DNA from: a virus
Virus genome (UHGV): UHGV-0017337
Length of the DNA: 43,119 nucleotides
Reading direction: 5' to 3' (one strand)
Within the stretch, counting starts at the first letter, position 1; the number at the start of each line of letters is the position of its first letter. The position numbers were made by a program, and so were the translations under genes. The notes beneath the pieces were generated by a model, which did no database searches, was not told the origin of the DNA, and saw only the letters and a list, made by a program, of their open reading frames with translations. Below, piece after piece: positions 14,482-40,740 of the stretch.

Positions 14482-14530
14482 TTTAAAATAATTCTTGACG
14501 GATTACACAAGGACGTGTAACCTACAATCA
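14482..14530 (+). promoter_or_regulatory. Conserved phage promoter P1 (UP-like AAAATAATTC, -35 TTGACG 14495-14500, -10 TAACCT 14518-14523)
   Basis: 17-nt spacer. 14482-14527 is 46/46 identical to P4 at 29676-29721. It contains the dyad TTACAC-N6-GTGTAA overlapping the -10. Confidence 0.8.
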
Positions 14531-14553
14531 ACAAAACAACGGAGGGTTACAAA

Positions 14554-14733
14554 ATGGCTACTTTCATCATTCTTTTCTTAATCGCTGCTGTATATCTAAT
14601 CCCAGCACTCATCGCGATTAACGTTAAACATAAACAACAAACAGCAATTATTTTACTTAACATCTTTGCGGGTTGGACATTCGTCGGTTGGTTAGGTGCG
14701 TTAATCTGGTCTGTGTTAAAAAGCGACAAATAA
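14554..14733 (+). CDS. Superinfection-immunity-like small membrane protein (Imm_superinfect-type)
   Basis: 59 aa: MATFIILFLIAAVYLIPALIAINVKHKQQTAIILLNIFAGWTFVGWLGALIWSVLKSDK. This matches the YxxPxxIA..H....I..LN...GWT..GW..AL.W pattern. GGAGGG RBS 7 nt upstream. Not in the ORF track because it is under 60 aa. Confidence 0.7.
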   Translation: MATFIILFLIAAVYLIPALIAINVKHKQQTAIILLNIFAGWTFVGWLGALIWSVLKSDK

Positions 14734-14734
14734 G

Positions 14735-15838
14735 ATGAGTAGGAAACGTTTAACCACAGAAGAGTTTATCACACGTGCCCGTGAAGTTCATGAGCACAAA
14801 TACGATTACTCGCTAGTGGAGTATGTTAAATCATCGGTTAAAGTTCGAATCATTTGTCCGATACACGGAGTGTTTGAACAGAGTCCTAATAATCATGTTT
14901 CAATGAAACAAGGTTGCCCGCAATGTGCTGTTGAACAACGATATTTGAACACCAGAGAATTCATTAAACATGCTCGTGAAGTTCACGGAGACCGTTACGA
15001 TTACTCATTGGTGGAATATAAACACAACCTGAGCAAAGTTAAAATTATCTGTCCTAAACATGGTGTATTTGAACAACGTCCATGTGACCACGTATCAAAG
15101 AAAAAAGGTTGCTCGGGTTGTGCCAATAATCAACGATTAACCACAGAAGCGTTTATCACTCGTGCTCGTGACATTCATGGGGATCGTTATGATTACTCAT
15201 TGGTGGAGTATGTGAACGCTCGTTCGTGTGTGCAAATCATCTGCCCTGAACACGGGATATTTGAACAAACTCCACATGTTCATTTAAAAAGCAGTGGTTG
15301 CCCACAGTGTGGTTCTGAACAAAAAGCAGAACAAAAACGTTTAGGTGCGGGAGAATTCATCACTCGTGCTCGTGACATTCATGGGGATCGTTACGATTAC
15401 TCATTGGTAGAGTATTTGAATAATCGTAGTAAAGTTCGAATCATCTGCTCTGAACATGGTGTATTTGAACAAACTCCTGATACTCATTTGAAAGGTTGTG
15501 CTTGCCCACAATGTTCACAAGCAGGTTTTAACCCGTCAGAACCTGGAACGCTCTACGTGTTAGCTGATGATAAACAGTATCCCACTCTGATTAAAATTGG
15601 TATTACAAATAACTTAAAACGACGACTACACCAACTACGACGCGAAACTCCACACCATGTGGTTAAACTCGTGTCGTATCCATTTCCACACGGCGCTGAT
15701 GCTTACAAACTGGAACAAGAGGTACACAAGGTCTTTCACGAACTTAATGCGCGTCTCAAAGGCTTTGACGGTGCTACAGAGTGGTTTAAATACTCTCCTG
15801 CAATCCTCGACTACATAAATGAAAAAGCCCGGAACTAA
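14735..15838 (+). CDS. T5orf172/GIY-YIG-like nuclease with four tandem ~62-aa Zn-ribbon modules (homing-endonuclease-like)
   Basis: Four repeats of EFITRAR.(I/V)HG.(K/R)YDYSLVEY....KV.IICP.HG.FEQ.P..H...GCPQC. The C-terminal domain reads PGTLYVLADD..LIKIGITNNLKRRL..GATEWF (T5orf172 hallmark). It is a plus-strand gene inside the minus-strand tail module. Confidence 0.8.
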   Translation: MSRKRLTTEEFITRAREVHEHKYDYSLVEYVKSSVKVRIICPIHGVFEQSPNNHVSMKQGCPQCAVEQRYLNTREFIKHAREVHGDRYDYSLVEYKHNLSKVKIICPKHGVFEQRPCDHVSKKKGCSGCANNQRLTTEAFITRARDIHGDRYDYSLVEYVNARSCVQIICPEHGIFEQTPHVHLKSSGCPQCGSEQKAEQKRLGAGEFITRARDIHGDRYDYSLVEYLNNRSKVRIICSEHGVFEQTPDTHLKGCACPQCSQAGFNPSEPGTLYVLADDKQYPTLIKIGITNNLKRRLHQLRRETPHHVVKLVSYPFPHGADAYKLEQEVHKVFHELNARLKGFDGATEWFKYSPAILDYINEKARN

Positions 15839-15858
15839 CCGGGCTTATGTTTATTTTT
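15826..15858. terminator. Bidirectional terminator between convergent genes
   Basis: Stem agcccgg / ccgggct with loop aactaa, A-run upstream and T-rich tail downstream. Both convergent stop codons lie within the hairpin. Confidence 0.7.
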
Positions 15859-16140
15859 CTTCATCTCGGCAACACGTGCAGACCGCAATGCTATCAATAA
15901 TTTCCACAAAAATTGTACATCAACGTTATACACCCGTGCATACCGCTCACAAGCAACCCAATCAGCGTCCATCAGATCCAAATAAGCATTCCAGTAAAAT
16001 ATAGCATCAGGTCGCAATTCAGGACGTTTCTGTACAACACTCGGAACAGATATACCACGTGCAGCCGCCCCTTGTGCAACCCAGTCCAGGTCATCCCCGG
16101 CTGTCCGCTCGTTCCACAAGAGAAAGTCAATCAGTTTTTT
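15835..16140 (-). CDS. Tail assembly chaperone, frameshift extension (GT-like C-terminal part)
   Basis: The -1 frame relative to 16131..16553 stays open from the slippery site to 15835 (..KKLIDFLLWNERTAGDD..). Its own start in the ORF track is probably not used. Confidence 0.6.
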   Translation of the reverse strand, partial: KKLIDFLLWNERTAGDDLDWVAQGAAARGISVPSVVQKRPELRPDAIFYWNAYLDLMDADWVACERYARVYNVDVQFLWKLLIALRSARVAEMKKNKHKPG

Positions 16141-16553
16141 GTGATATCTTTCTCCCATTCGTCCTTGAAGAATGCGGAATTAATTGCAAACTGAATAACA
16201 CGACTGTAGATCACCTGCCCAAAACGTTCGTCACTTAAGAGTTCAATAGCTTCTTCAACACTGAATGGTTCCGGTTTGTCATCTTCACCAATCAGTTTCC
16301 AGTCCAGCATAAGAACGTTAGCCACGAACTTAACACCTTCTGGTGTATATTCCTGATTCCACAGTTTTTCAAAGAAGTTTTCAGACAACACACCGTTCTG
16401 TTTTACATAGTCTGCGACTGTTGCGTTATATACCTGGTTAGCGGTGTTCAGGTTCAACACTGTGATACTGAAGTTTTCATTTAAGATCAGTTCAGCAGAA
16501 GACTTCAGCACCAGTGGAGAAAGTGCTTTTTTCAGATGATCAAACTTTGACAT
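16131..16553 (-). CDS. Tail assembly chaperone (lambda G-like)
   Basis: 140-aa acidic ORF between the major tail and tape measure genes. It ends in the slippery site. Confidence 0.7.
   Translation of the reverse strand: MSKFDHLKKALSPLVLKSSAELILNENFSITVLNLNTANQVYNATVADYVKQNGVLSENFFEKLWNQEYTPEGVKFVANVLMLDWKLIGEDDKPEPFSVEEAIELLSDERFGQVIYSRVIQFAINSAFFKDEWEKDITKN
16134..16140 (-). promoter_or_regulatory. -1 programmed frameshift slippery heptamer A AAA AAC
   Basis: The minus strand reads ACA AAA AAC TGA at the end of the G-like ORF. The heptamer fits X XXY YYZ in the zero frame, and a -1 shift enters the 15835..16158 frame. Confidence 0.65.
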
Positions 16554-39911: not shown

Positions 39912-40066
39912 AAACCTATGACGGTGTGCCCGTGAAGATTATCGCTGAAAACACGCGCGGCGATCTGGAACTGGAAGTAACTGAAAAGATGCCCTGGGAA
40001 TCGTCGCCTGATGTTGGCGATCGTTTCTGGGTTACTGGCGATGACGAATATTTAAAAGGTGAATAA
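39908..40066 (+). CDS. Small acidic protein (52 aa)
   Basis: [24 protein letters not shown].., with ATGA overlap onto the rdgC stop. Confidence 0.4.
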
Positions 40067-40067
40067 C

Positions 40068-40325
40068 ATGAATTTTGGTGAAGCAGTTACGATGATGAAC
40101 ATCGGTCATAAAGTTGCCCGTAATGGTTGGAACGGTAAAAGTATGTTTCTGTTTTTGATAGCAGGTGATTCCTGGGGTTTTGAATGTGATATTGAAGGTG
40201 TGGATGGTTTGGATACTTTACCATTTGTTTGTATGAAAACGGCAGATAATAAATTAGTGCCTTGGCTTGCAAGTCAGACTGATGTTTTAGCTGACGACTG
40301 GAAAATAGTAGGTGATGTGAAATGA
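40068..40325 (+). CDS. DUF2829-family protein (Tad2-like candidate anti-Thoeris signal sponge)
   Basis: ATG at 40068 after AAGGTGA. MNFGEAVTMMNIGHKVARNGWNGKSMFL...VPWLASQTDVLADDWKIV matches the DUF2829 N- and C-terminal signatures. Confidence 0.6.
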   Translation: MNFGEAVTMMNIGHKVARNGWNGKSMFLFLIAGDSWGFECDIEGVDGLDTLPFVCMKTADNKLVPWLASQTDVLADDWKIVGDVK

Positions 40326-40657
40326 AAACAGAACAGGAACGTATTATTCAGTGGTTATGCTCTGGTGAAACGGGACTGAGTTCTAAAACGATGATCTGCA
40401 TTCACACAGGTAATGAAATGGATGGTGAATGGGGTTTTCGTGCACCGAGGGATGTTTCCGATTTTCGCCGTTGTTGGTCCCTGGTTAAAGCTGTACCGGA
40501 AATCAGAAAAAGTTTTCCATTGATTGCTGAAAAGTGTCCGGCATTTAAAGGCGTGATTGAAAACTGGGATGTTATTAGTGCAGCTTATGAACGTGAACAC
40601 GGATCCGGTAAATGTCCTGAAACGTATCGGTTACTGAAAGAAGCGTTGGGCGAATAA
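40322..40657 (+). CDS. Hypothetical protein
   Basis: 111 aa with ATGA overlap. A strong terminator follows. Confidence 0.55.
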   Translation: MKTEQERIIQWLCSGETGLSSKTMICIHTGNEMDGEWGFRAPRDVSDFRRCWSLVKAVPEIRKSFPLIAEKCPAFKGVIENWDVISAAYEREHGSGKCPETYRLLKEALGE

Positions 40658-40666
40658 TGAACATTA

Positions 40667-40690
40667 CCCCGGAACTAACCGGGGTTTTTA
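40667..40690 (+). terminator. Rho-independent terminator
   Basis: ccccgg-aactaa-ccgggg followed by tttttattt. The loop sequence is the same as in the terminator at 15826. Confidence 0.85.
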
Positions 40691-40740
40691 TTTAAAATAA
40701 TTCTTGACAGATTACACAAGGATGTGTAAATTACTCACAT
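40691..40740 (+). promoter_or_regulatory. Conserved phage promoter P9 (-35 TTGACA 40704-40709, -10 TAAATT 40727-40732)
   Basis: 17-nt spacer. Contains the dyad TTACACAAGGATGTGTAA. Confidence 0.75.

What the first reader, a model, noticed from the sequence alone, without database searches (positions are those of the whole stretch)
14482..40740. One promoter cassette reused eight or nine times divides the genome into plus-strand cassettes
Seen in sequence: the block (G)TTTAAAATAATTCTTGAC(R)GATTRCA recurs at 14482, 24673, 28534, 29676, 32774, 36426, 38102 and 40691, and in mutated form at 31874. It is always on the plus strand, and each copy has a TAnnnT -10 at 17-18 nt (TAACCT, TATCTT, TAACAT, TAACCT, TATGCT, TATATT, TAGACT, TAAATT). 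Every plus-strand cassette interspersed among the minus-strand late genes starts with one. Several copies are embedded in the 3' ends of upstream ORFs, with stop codons inside the UP-like region (29683), the -35 (32786) or the -10 (38138). Two subclasses exist downstream of the -35: ATTACAC and ATTGCA. In the three ATTGCA copies that sit in divergent intergenic regions (P3, P5, P7), the reverse strand reads (T/C)TGCAA-17-TAAAC(T/G/C). Inference: this is a strong host-sigma70 early promoter family with an A/T UP-like element. The ATTGCA copies may also carry a weak back-to-back promoter for the adjacent minus-strand late genes (28503 gene, portal, terL).
Basis: partly seen in the sequence, partly recalled or inferred. 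Interest (0 to 1): 0.5.

Follow-up and report, generated by a model that had tools for sequence, protein, structure and literature searches.

The report
Repeated early promoter in 9NA-like phage
A 26-base promoter sequence is reused ten times in this stretch of a 9NA-like phage genome to switch on each block of early and accessory genes; this is an ordinary kind of phage promoter family, but it is unusually invariant and it marks the points where gene cassettes are gained, lost and swapped.

Summary
The repeat is real: 11 matches against 0.08 expected by chance. All nine listed copies, their -10 hexamers and the three embedded stop codons check out.

The window is a Sashavirus/Nonanavirus (9NA-like) siphophage. 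The core AAAATAATTCTTGAC is kept letter for letter, 10-14 times per genome and on both strands, in Bas82, 9NA, Sasha and Klebsiella phage Carvaje. A variant occurs in Proteus phage PmiS-Isfahan.

The consensus is tTTAAAATAATTCTTGACrrATTrCA, about 9 nt, then TAnnnT. It always points at a co-oriented gene with a ribosome-binding site about 60 nt downstream. The best reading is the upstream half of a strong host-sigma70 early promoter. Its A/T part is the inverted 12-nt core of the E. coli rrnB P1 UP element.

It also acts as a module junction, much like the PeSL cassettes of T4-type phages. The "two subclasses" are one purine position that flips between orthologues. The proposed back-to-back late promoter is plausible only at 28534. 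terL and the tail-chaperone gene have their own conserved minus-strand elements, as does portal in the relatives (lost in this window).

This is a known kind of feature, and no transcript data exist.

The parts
14482..14523 (+). Promoter copy heading cassette A (Imm_superinfect-like gene 14554-14733 and T5orf172 endonuclease-like gene 14735-15838). Block 14482-14507, -35 TTGACG 14495-14500, -10 TAACCT 14518-14523.
   Evidence: The first 47 nt are identical to the copy at 29676.
24347..24388 (-). Block 24388->24363, -35 TTGACG 24375->24370, -10 TACCCT 24352->24347. It heads gene 24316->23951, which runs straight into the head genes.
   Evidence: The gene is absent from 9NA, Sasha and Carvaje, and those genomes also lack this copy.
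24673..24714 (+). Promoter copy heading cassette B (24819-26249). -35 at 24686-24691, -10 TATCTT at 24709-24714. It forms a divergent pair with the minus-strand copy.
   Evidence: The downstream module has no orthologue in Bas82.
28534..28576 (+). Promoter copy heading cassette C (dUTPase and following genes). -35 TTGACA at 28547-28552, -10 TAACAT at 28571-28576 (18-nt spacer). The reverse strand 28560->28532 reads TTGCAA-17-TAAACT, 28 nt upstream of gene 28503.
29676..29717 (+). Internal promoter copy of cassette C. The stop codon of ORF 29437-29685 lies inside the A/T part. -10 TAACCT at 29712-29717.
31875..31900 (+). Degenerate copy (TTGAC changed to TAAGC) at the upstream junction of an inserted T5orf172 endonuclease-like gene (31913-32788). 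It is probably not a promoter as such. Its TAAAAT (31877-31882) may serve as the -10 of TTGATA(31854)-17-TAAAAT.
32772..32813 (+). Promoter copy heading the rest of cassette D. The stop TGA 32786-32788 of the inserted gene lies inside the -35 (32785-32790). -10 TATGCT at 32808-32813.
   Evidence: The downstream flank is orthologous to the portal-adjacent promoter of Bas82 and Sasha.
36426..36467 (+). Promoter copy heading cassette E, divergent from terL. -35 TTGACA at 36439-36444, -10 TATATT at 36462-36467. A leader of about 220 nt follows before the first ORF (36693).
38102..38143 (+). Internal promoter copy of cassette E. The stop TAG 38138 of ORF 37925-38140 lies inside the -10 TAGACT (38138-38143).
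40666..40732 (+). G+C hairpin terminator (40666-40685) directly followed by a promoter copy (block 40691-40716, -10 TAAATT 40727-40732). This is the most PeSL-like unit.
36385..36403 (-). Conserved minus-strand element GTGGTAAACTGTACAGAAC (extended -10 type, TGgTAAACT) 26 nt beyond the block and upstream of terL. Candidate late promoter.
   Evidence: Identical at 19 of 19 positions in five genomes while the neighbouring 20 nt vary.
16588..16613 (-). Conserved minus-strand element TTGCGTAATTTGTACAGAACTATTAC upstream of the tail assembly chaperone gene. It shares GTACAGAAC with the terL element. In the relatives it sits 9 nt from a promoter block and a small cassette that this window lacks.
15825..15846 (.). 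Bidirectional terminator-like hairpin closing cassette A and the upstream minus-strand unit. A similar one at 30445-30466 closes cassette C.

Best explanation
The block is the upstream half of one family of strong promoters read by the host's sigma70 RNA polymerase. It has three pieces. The first is an A-tract UP-like element (AAAAT at about -45 to -41). The second is a consensus -35 (TTGAC, then A or G). The third is a fixed, conserved ATTRCA at -28 to -23. Each copy is joined to its own -10 (TAnnnT, 17+/-1 nt), a short 5' leader and a ribosome-binding site. The family heads essentially every non-structural transcription unit of 9NA-like phages. These units are the replication operons and the small accessory cassettes (dUTPase, RdgC, Tad2-like anti-defence, superinfection immunity, homing-endonuclease-like genes) that sit, mostly in the opposite direction, between the virion genes. 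Because all copies share about 26 identical bases, the block is also where homologous recombination joins modules, so cassettes are deleted, replaced or inserted at it. Shown: the sequence anatomy, the orientation and spacing to genes, conservation across genera, and mosaic junctions at the block. Inferred: that it is transcribed early by the sigma70 holoenzyme, that the A/T part binds the alpha C-terminal domain, and that recombination happens at the block.
For: Eleven matches against 0.08 expected. There are 53 copies within 1 mismatch in five genomes. Of these, 45 have TAnnnT at 16-18 nt (34 at 17 nt), and the median distance from the -35 to a co-oriented start codon with a ribosome-binding site is 61 nt. 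The 15-mer is identical in four genera whose shared genes are only ~78% identical. Across genera the 26-nt block is 92% identical, against 72-73% for the 50-nt flanks, with 57% for unrelated sequence under the same aligner. Proteus phage PmiS-Isfahan keeps TTTAAAAT, TTGAC and ATTRCA at the same spacing while AATTC becomes ATAGC. The reverse complement of TTTAAAATAATT is AATTATTTTAAA, a 12-nt stretch of the rrnB P1 upstream region. That this stretch is the UP element is established knowledge (Ross et al. 1993; Estrem et al. 1998), not tested here. The same 26-nt block drives HicAB- and YafO-type toxin-antitoxin morons in E. coli prophage-like islands and in temperate Klebsiella phages. In those elements the gene behind it has diverged to 71% while the block stays intact, so it appears to work without any 9NA-like phage protein. 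For junctions, Sasha's terL-side promoter combines the upstream flank of the 36426 copy with the downstream flank of the 40691 copy. That is the product expected from recombination between two direct copies. Cassettes B and E differ from Bas82 starting right after ATTRCA.
Against: No transcription start, RNA-seq or in vitro data exist for any phage of this group in the literature I could reach. The paper most likely to discuss this (Zeng et al. 2019, J Virol 93:e00848-19) is not held. The -10 hexamers are individually weak. Sigma70 and alpha contacts alone do not explain why AATTC, and especially ATTRCA in the spacer, are invariant. The rrnB match is inverted, shifted by about 6 bp, and made only of A and T, so part of it could be chance. 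A Vibrio relative with the same interleaved gene layout has no such block, so the layout does not require it.
Confidence: 0.8

Rival explanations
1. The block is a promoter, but its letter-for-letter invariance is imposed by a second protein. This could be a phage early-shut-off repressor or activator, or a host factor, that recognises ATTRCA and/or the imperfect dyad TAATTC-N5-GGATTA centred on the -35. That would make the block a combined promoter and operator that times the early-to-late switch.
For: Conservation goes beyond what sigma70 and alpha need: ATTRCA at -28 to -23 is kept even in the Proteus phage. Three copies carry a perfect 18-bp palindrome TTACAC-N6-GTGTAA across the spacer and -10, against 0.025 expected, and the same palindrome recurs in another position upstream of the primase-side promoter in the relatives. 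A NinH (Fis-like helix-turn-helix) gene is present at 27382-27573.
Against: The intact block, including ATTGCA, is conserved upstream of toxin-antitoxin morons in temperate Klebsiella and E. coli elements that lack the 9NA-like gene set. That argues against a 9NA-specific protein, though a host factor remains possible. The dyad is not kept in PmiS-Isfahan. No candidate regulator was identified.
Confidence: 0.25
2. The ATTGCA copies in divergent intergenic regions also carry a weak back-to-back promoter on the other strand ((T/C)TGCAA-17-TAAACN) for the 28503 gene, portal and terL.
For: At 28534 the reverse strand reads TTGCAA-17-TAAACT, 28 nt from the ATG of gene 28503, leaving no room for another promoter. 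Bas82, 9NA and Sasha keep TTGCAA or TTGTAA and TAAAAT or TAAACT there.
Against: At 31875 and 36426 the '-10' is TAAACG or TAAACC, without the essential final T, and the -35-like G/A position flips between orthologues. terL has a separate element conserved at 19 of 19 positions (TGgTAAACTGTACAGAAC), and portal in the relatives has TGaTATAAC 25 nt beyond the block. In Carvaje the 28503-gene version loses the -35, and the start would fall inside the ribosome-binding site.
Confidence: 0.2
3. The block is conserved mainly for a reason other than transcription: it is a recombination, homing or packaging signal, and its promoter-like look is incidental.
For: Mosaic junctions fall at the block. Two cassettes carry T5orf172 homing-endonuclease-like genes, and one is flanked by two block copies at 31875 and 32772.
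Against: Every copy is co-oriented with a gene, at a fixed distance from a ribosome-binding site and start codon, and has a -10 at the correct spacing. A recombination or packaging site would not need that. Packaging in this phage group is described as starting from a pac site with headful filling (PMC4153490, PMC8954984), which does not call for ~14 dispersed sites on both strands.
Confidence: 0.05
4. The identity among copies is only recent homogenisation (gene conversion or duplication) within one genome, with no selection on the sequence itself.
For: The copies at 14482 and 29676 are identical for 47 nt and similar through the 5' leader, which shows a recent duplication.
Against: The same 15-mer is fixed in four genera on different hosts, and in temperate-phage morons, while the flanks have diverged. 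Homogenisation within genomes would let lineages drift apart.
Confidence: 0.03

Closest known systems
PeSL (promoter-early stem-loop) regulatory cassettes of T4-type phages (Arbiol et al. 2010, PMC2839356; Comeau et al. 2014, PMC4122927)
   Same: Both are repeated strong sigma70-like early promoters with an A/T-rich upstream part. Stop codons of upstream genes lie in the A/T part. Both are associated with small variable genes of unknown function, and insertions, deletions and replacements between close relatives are bounded by the motif. Here one copy (40691) is directly preceded by a G+C hairpin, and three copies have a small palindrome across the spacer and -10.
   Different: Most copies here have no stem-loop. 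The invariant part is a defined 26-nt upstream half rather than a looser composite motif. The host phage is a siphovirus, and the cassettes sit inside the virion-gene operon in the opposite direction. Mini-circles and promoter activity have not been shown.
Extended-consensus early promoter families of virulent coliphages (T4 early promoters, T5 early promoters such as PN25).
   Same: Many copies per genome, a near-consensus -35, an A-rich upstream element, and conservation beyond the two hexamers. They are thought to let phage promoters outcompete host promoters for host RNA polymerase right after infection.
   Different: The sequence differs. Here the -10 is the variable, rather weak part, and the conserved extra element lies just downstream of the -35.
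UP element of E. coli rrnB P1
   Same: The 12-nt core AATTATTTTAAA is identical to the reverse complement of the block's TTTAAAATAATT.
   Different: Inverted orientation, about 6 bp closer to the -35, and only half the length of the rrnB element. Binding of the alpha C-terminal domain was not tested.
Morons of temperate phages (a promoter, gene and terminator unit inserted between virion genes)
   Same: Self-contained units with their own promoter, and often a terminator, inserted in the late operon. The same block drives HicAB- and YafO-type toxin-antitoxin morons next to tail-fibre genes in temperate Klebsiella phages and E. coli islands.
   Different: Here the phage is virulent, there are many units, they share one promoter, and most point against the late genes.

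Membership tests
Sigma70-dependent promoter with UP element | A -35 hexamer close to TTGACA | tested here: met
   TTGAC followed by A or G is exact in 9 of 10 window copies and in 49 of the 53 copies across five genomes.
Sigma70-dependent promoter with UP element | A -10 hexamer TAnnnT, 16-18 nt downstream of the -35 | tested here: met
   All nine intact window copies, and 45 of 53 overall (34 at 17 nt). A further 6 have nAnnnT.
Sigma70-dependent promoter with UP element | An A/T-rich element at about -40 to -60 of UP type | tested here: met
   AAAAT at -45 to -41 is fixed in all genera, including the Proteus phage. There is a 12-nt identity (inverted) to the rrnB P1 upstream region. This is sequence evidence only.
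Sigma70-dependent promoter with UP element | Position upstream of, and co-oriented with, a gene | tested here: met
   The median distance from the -35 to a start codon with a ribosome-binding site is 61 nt, range 49-192 nt. For one of the 53 copies (Carvaje 31645) no downstream start was found within 200 nt.
Sigma70-dependent promoter with UP element | Transcription starts about 7 nt downstream of the -10, made by the sigma70 holoenzyme | not testable with these tools
   No transcript data were found.
PeSL-type mobile regulatory cassette | A strong sigma70-like early promoter with an A/T-rich upstream region | tested here: met
   See the rows above.
PeSL-type mobile regulatory cassette | A stable stem-loop (terminator or attenuator) built into or next to the promoter | tested here: not met
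   Only 40691 has an adjacent G+C hairpin (40666-40685). The copies at 14482, 29676 and 40691 have only a weak 6-bp A/T-rich palindrome. The other copies have none.
PeSL-type mobile regulatory cassette | Preferential association with variable genes of unknown function | tested here: met
   Cassettes B, D and E differ in content from Bas82, which is 95% identical overall. Most cassette proteins have no Pfam family.
PeSL-type mobile regulatory cassette | Insertions, deletions and replacements between relatives are bounded by the motif | tested here: met
   Sasha 1739 combines the upstream flank of 36426 with the downstream flank of 40691. Replacements start right after ATTRCA. The inserted gene 31913-32788 is flanked by two copies.
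Phage operator overlapping a promoter (lambda OR/OL type) | Dyad-symmetric site with a cognate phage DNA-binding protein | tested here: inconclusive
   There is an imperfect dyad, TAATTC-N5-GGATTA, read by eye from the consensus. It is not kept in PmiS-Isfahan. No regulator was identified, and the block works in elements without the phage's genes.
T4 MotA-type middle promoter (sigma appropriation) | The -35 is replaced by an activator box centred at -30 | tested here: not met
   A canonical TTGAC -35 is present in every copy.
Overlapping divergent (back-to-back) promoter pair | A usable -35/-10 pair on the opposite strand, conserved in orthologues | tested here: inconclusive
   Plausible at 28534 only. 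It fails at 31875 and 36426 and in Carvaje.

The most novel reading that the evidence does not exclude
The invariant block is more than a sigma70 promoter. In this reading it is a shared regulatory hub with three roles. First, its A/T part reads in rrnB-UP orientation on the other strand and lies 9-26 nt from conserved -35-less late elements, so it would serve as a common UP element that early and divergent late promoters compete for. Second, the fixed ATTRCA would be read by an unidentified factor (most likely a host factor, because the block also works in prophage morons), and that would set the early-to-late switch. Third, the same identity lets the phage's own annealing and exonuclease system shuffle anti-defence cassettes between co-infecting relatives.
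Probability: 0.15. Interest if true: 0.6.

Novelty: new member of a known kind. Interest (0 to 1): 0.35.

Why it matters
It gives a usable transcription map for a poorly studied group of virulent Enterobacterales phages that includes candidates for phage therapy and biocontrol. About 14 near-identical early promoters define the early and accessory units, and separate conserved elements mark at least two late units. It explains how accessory, anti-defence and homing-endonuclease genes come to sit inside the virion operon and how they are exchanged. It also offers a compact, portable 26-nt strong-promoter half for engineering. The unexplained invariance of ATTRCA is a small, directly testable question about what besides the two hexamers and the UP element makes a promoter strong.

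Tried and rejected
Literature: I found no accessible paper describing these promoters. 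Zeng et al. 2019 could not be read, so prior description cannot be excluded.

IMG/VR scan for the 16-mer: mostly single chance hits, not informative.

Scan of one genome for each of 185,579 species: 4 hits, about the chance level (my estimate), so the block is not a common host promoter. One of the four is a CRISPR spacer.

Vibrio relative 1.160.O: no block and no other highly repeated 12-mer.

A general late-promoter motif: TA[AG]CTGTA turned out to be an iteron cluster near terS, not upstream of the late genes. GTACAGAAC is shared only by the terL and tail-chaperone elements.

Other checks: sigma54, CRP, LexA, TyrR, ArgR, CytR, Fis and IHF consensus sequences were compared by eye from memory, and none fits. 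Rfam and tRNA scans of the window found nothing. The 220-nt leader after 36426 is not unusually structured (z = -1.1). Pfam scans of the cassette proteins found no clear transcription regulator apart from NinH.

Full report
**Observation**

A search for TTTAAAATAATTCTTGAC with up to 3 mismatches finds 11 sites, against 0.08 expected from shuffles.
- Seven are exact + strand copies, at 14482, 24673, 28534, 29676, 36426, 38102 and 40691.
- One has 2 mismatches (32772; the exact 15-mer starts at 32775), and one has 3 mismatches (31875).
- One is a weak 3-mismatch site on the minus strand (2159-2176).

The listed -10 hexamers, their 17-18 nt spacing and the three stop codons inside the UP-like part, the -35 and the -10 are all as stated. 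The minus-strand copy has the exact 15-mer, -35 TTGACG, a 17-nt spacer, TACCCT and a ribosome-binding site before the gene 24316->23951. So "always on the plus strand" is wrong.

**What the window is**

The window is about 95% identical to Escherichia phage KarinMuster_Bas82, PJ16 and two "Sashavirus" records. It is more distantly related to Salmonella phages Sasha, Sergei, Solent and 9NA and to several Klebsiella phages. [quoted passage not shown]

Transferring the Bas82 annotation gives the map.
- Minus-strand virion genes run in canonical order: a terS candidate at 41249-41944 (see Other things seen), terL, portal, head morphogenesis, scaffold/capsid, tail tube, chaperones, tape measure and tail tip.
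- They are interrupted by + strand cassettes: A 14554-15838, B 24819-26249, C 28611-30440, D 31913-34466 and E 36693-41162.
- Each cassette starts with a copy of the block, and C, D and E have internal copies.
- Cassette proteins with a Pfam hit are a superinfection-immunity-like protein, two T5orf172/MUG113 plus zinc-finger (homing-endonuclease-like) proteins, RdgC, a Tad2-like anti-Thoeris protein and DUF7448. dUTPase is named by transfer of the Bas82 annotation. Most of the others have no family.

**Comparative anatomy**

I assembled the full genomes of Bas82, 9NA, Sasha and Klebsiella phage Carvaje. The 15-mer AAAATAATTCTTGAC occurs 10-14 times per genome with at most 1 mismatch, on both strands. 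It also heads the DNA-polymerase operon and the primase- and ParB-side units, which lie outside this window or on its other strand.

Pooling 53 copies gives the consensus tTTAAAATAATTCTTGACrrATTrCA, about 9 nt, then TAnnnT, followed by a short leader and a GGAG-type ribosome-binding site.
- TAnnnT lies at 16-18 nt in 45 of 53 copies, and at 17 nt in 34.
- The median distance from the -35 to the start codon is 61 nt.
- At eight orthologous sites compared across genera, the 26-nt block is 92% identical and the 50-nt flanks are 72-73% identical. Unrelated sequence scores 57% with the same aligner.
- The purine in ATTRCA flips between orthologues. For example, the terL-side copy reads ATTGCAG in the window, ATTACAG in Bas82 and ATTGCAT in 9NA.

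Proteus phage PmiS-Isfahan is the distant member of the group. It has about eight copies of TTTAAAATAT(A/G)GCTTGACagATTRCA. The A-tract, TTGAC and ATTRCA keep their spacing while AATTC has changed. A Vibrio relative with a 40%-identical portal and the same interleaved layout has no such block.

**Is it a promoter?**

Every copy points at a co-oriented gene at a fixed distance and has a correctly spaced -10. A recombination or packaging signal would not need either feature.

The reverse complement of TTTAAAATAATT is AATTATTTTAAA. I recalled the rrnB P1 promoter sequence and confirmed it at 100% identity in all 5,426 E. coli genomes, between murI and the 16S rRNA gene. It contains this exact 12-mer. 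That this stretch is the UP element bound by the alpha C-terminal domain is established knowledge (Ross et al. 1993; Estrem et al. 1998). The match is inverted, about 6 bp closer to the -35, and made only of A and T, so it is supportive rather than decisive.

The block also occurs as single copies outside the phage group.
- In 8 of 5,426 E. coli genomes it lies upstream of a DUF1902(HicB-like)/HicA pair, or upstream of a YafO module next to an integrase and a capsid gene.
- It occurs in temperate Klebsiella phages next to tail-fibre genes. There the gene behind it has diverged to 71% identity while the 26-nt block is intact.

So the block appears to function, and to be under selection, without any 9NA-like phage protein. 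That favours recognition by the host transcription machinery. It is not a common host promoter: a scan of one genome per species found only 4 hits, about the number expected by chance on my rough estimate.

**What remains unexplained**

Sigma70 and alpha contacts do not obviously require an invariant AATTC or an ATTRCA at -28 to -23. Three readings are possible:
- a single optimum for very strong polymerase binding, as is proposed for the extended consensus of T4 and T5 early promoters (from memory);
- a host factor;
- a phage regulator, which the prophage copies make less likely.

Three window copies (14482, 29676 and 40691) carry a perfect 18-bp palindrome, TTACAC-AAGGAY-GTGTAA, across the spacer and -10 (3 found against 0.025 expected). 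The same palindrome sits in a different position upstream of the primase-side promoter in Bas82, 9NA and Sasha. Its role is unknown.

**Module junctions**

I looked for the best partner of each window copy's upstream flank and, separately, of its downstream flank.
- The 24673 copy shares its upstream flank with Bas82, but its downstream flank has no orthologue there.
- The 32772 copy shares only its downstream flank with the portal-side promoter of Bas82 and Sasha.
- The 36426 copy shares its upstream flank with all the relatives, but its downstream flank only with 9NA.
- Sasha's terL-side promoter has the upstream flank of 36426 and the downstream flank of 40691. Recombination between two direct copies, deleting about 4.3 kb, would give exactly this.

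The breakpoints lie right after ATTRCA, so the -10, the leader and the genes travel together.

The 291-aa T5orf172 gene (31913-32788) is absent from Bas82 and sits between two block copies. The upstream copy has decayed (TTGAC to TAAGC) and leaves no room for a -10. The gene's stop codon lies in the -35 of the downstream copy. Cassette A, which also carries a T5orf172 gene, is specific to the Bas82/window lineage, and its promoter is a 47-nt exact duplicate of the 29676 copy. These phages encode a single-strand annealing protein and an exonuclease, which could use about 26 nt of identity; that step is inference.

The closest described system is the PeSL cassette of T4-type phages. These are repeated strong sigma70-like early promoters with an A/T-rich upstream part and stop codons of upstream genes within it. 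[quoted passage not shown] The defining stem-loop is mostly missing here, so I treat this as working like a PeSL rather than as a member of that family.

**The back-to-back promoter idea**

I aligned the minus-strand sequence upstream of four virion-side units in five genomes.
- terL: GTGGTAAACTGTACAGAAC, 26 nt beyond the block, is identical at 19 of 19 positions while the 20 nt between it and the block vary. It reads as an extended -10 (TGgTAAACT).
- Tail chaperone: TTGCGTAATTTGTACAGAACTATTA is conserved and shares GTACAGAAC. In the relatives it lies 9 nt from a block and a small cassette, which this window has cleanly lost.
- Portal: the four relatives share CTGATATAACATACGTTAAGAA. The window lost it with the endonuclease-gene insertion, so how portal is transcribed here is open.
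- Gene 28503: there is no room for a separate element. The reverse strand reads TTGCAA-17-TAAACT. Bas82, 9NA and Sasha keep TAAAAT or TAAACT. Carvaje has TATAAC without a -35, and the start would fall in the ribosome-binding site.

At the other two, TAAACG and TAAACC lack the final T of a -10.

**Verdict**

This is a real, highly significant repeat. It is best explained as the shared upstream half of the early-promoter family of 9NA-like phages, and it also serves as the seam for cassette exchange. That is a new member of a known kind, and it may already be annotated in a paper I could not read. Confidence in promoter function is about 0.8, without transcript data. Interest is modest. The points worth following up are the extreme invariance, ATTRCA, the link to the inverted rrnB UP core and the PeSL-like shuffling.

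**Other things seen**

- A Yersinia pekkanenii type I-F CRISPR array holds a 32-nt spacer that begins with the block.
- An iteron-like cluster lies between the terS candidate and the divergent unit beyond it, and there is a related inverted repeat at 24635-24670. I call 41249-41944 terS from its position relative to Bas82 and Sasha; it has no Pfam hit and was not compared with their terS.
- A conserved TTGACA-17-TATTGT lies on the late strand at 20453->20425, ahead of about 500 nt of non-coding sequence.
- A degenerate block at 2159-2176 is conserved in all genomes.

Noticed in passing
L140 (Yersinia pekkanenii NZ_CQAZ01000023.1), about 1148-1179, minus strand: The only Enterobacterales hit in the one-genome-per-species scan is a 32-nt spacer (TTAAAATAATTCTTGACGTATTGCACTGATGT). 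It lies between GTTCACTGCCGTACAGGCAGCTTAGAAA repeats, which look like type I-F repeats from memory, and two ORFs that look Csy-like by eye lie next to the array. The host has therefore taken a spacer from a promoter copy of a phage of this kind. Such a spacer partly matches about 14 sites per genome across the whole phage group.
   Followed up: partly
L131 4001-4026, L132 4001-4023, L135 2501-2526, L136 1501-1554: The same 26-nt block occurs as single copies upstream of HicB-like/HicA and YafO toxin-antitoxin modules in E. coli prophage- or satellite-like islands. It also lies next to tail-fibre genes in temperate Klebsiella phages (ST512-KPC3phi13.3 and BUCT711). The block is intact although the gene behind it is only 71% identical between the E. 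coli and Klebsiella versions.
   Followed up: partly
window 36385-36403 (-) and 16588-16613 (-): Conserved minus-strand elements upstream of terL (GTGGTAAACTGTACAGAAC, 19 of 19 identical in five genomes) and of the tail chaperone gene (TTGCGTAATTTGTACAGAACTATTAC). They share a -10-like hexamer plus GTACAGAAC and are candidate late promoters or regulator sites. The terL one contains the palindrome AACTGT-N5-ACAGTT.
   Followed up: partly
window 31820-31912: The element conserved upstream of portal in Bas82, 9NA, Sasha and Carvaje (CTGATATAACATACGTTAAGAA) is missing here. The insertion of the endonuclease-like gene replaced it. What transcribes portal in this phage is unclear.
   Followed up: partly
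window 14735-15838 (+) and 31913-32788 (+): Two T5orf172/MUG113 plus DUF723/DUF4379 zinc-finger proteins (homing-endonuclease-like). One is in the lineage-specific cassette between the chaperone and tape-measure genes. The other was inserted between portal and its neighbouring promoter. The Vibrio relative also has two T5orf172 genes inserted against the late genes.
   Followed up: partly
window 40059-40325 (+), 14554-14733 (+), 38994-39911 (+): Cassette cargo includes a Tad2-like (Thoeris anti-defence 2) protein, a superinfection-immunity-family protein and RdgC.
   Followed up: no
window 14503-14520, 29697-29714, 40712-40729: A perfect 18-bp palindrome TTACAC-AAGGA(C/T)-GTGTAA spans the spacer and -10 of three promoter copies (0.025 expected). 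The same palindrome sits just upstream of the primase-side promoter in Bas82, 9NA and Sasha. It could be a binding site or a remnant of tandem promoters.
   Followed up: partly
window 41945-42365 and 24635-24670: Iteron-like repeats GT(G/A)(C/T)AT-TA(G/A)CTGTA occur in both orientations between the terS candidate (41249-41944) and the divergent unit beyond it. A related inverted repeat, TAGCTAATAC-N7-GTATTAGCTG, lies between the divergent promoter pair at 24.4-24.7 kb. The repeats are present in the Sasha-type genomes but not in 9NA or Carvaje in this form. They could be pac, origin or ParB-like sites.
   Followed up: partly
window 36468-36692 (+): The promoter at 36426 is followed by about 220 nt without an ORF of note before the first gene. 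The start of this leader (the ~60 nt compared) is conserved with 9NA. It has no Rfam family and is not unusually structured (z = -1.1).
   Followed up: partly
window 20453->20425 (-) and 19922-20435: A TTGACA-17-TATTGT site (10 of 12 matches) on the late strand overlaps a degenerate block-like sequence (ATAACTATTCTTGAC) that is conserved in all five genomes. About 500 nt with no annotated gene in Bas82 follows. Carvaje and the Vibrio relative carry a tRNA gene at a similar position, downstream of the capsid gene. No tRNA or Rfam hit is found here.
   Followed up: no
window 2159-2176 (-): A degenerate block (TTTTAAATAATTCTATAC) lies in the 39-bp gap after the DNA polymerase gene, antisense to that operon. 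It is conserved at the same place in Bas82, 9NA, Sasha and Carvaje.
   Followed up: no
window 27382-27573 (-): A NinH-family (Fis-like helix-turn-helix) gene lies in the minus-strand unit that starts at 28503. That unit is not purely structural, so it may not be 'late'.
   Followed up: no
window 16554-16661 vs Bas82 21277-21724: The window cleanly lacks a 346-bp unit (small gene, leader and promoter block) that Bas82, 9NA, Sasha and Carvaje carry between the tail tube and chaperone genes. The junction shows only TTG/GTT microhomology, so this loss did not arise by recombination between two block copies.
   Followed up: yes
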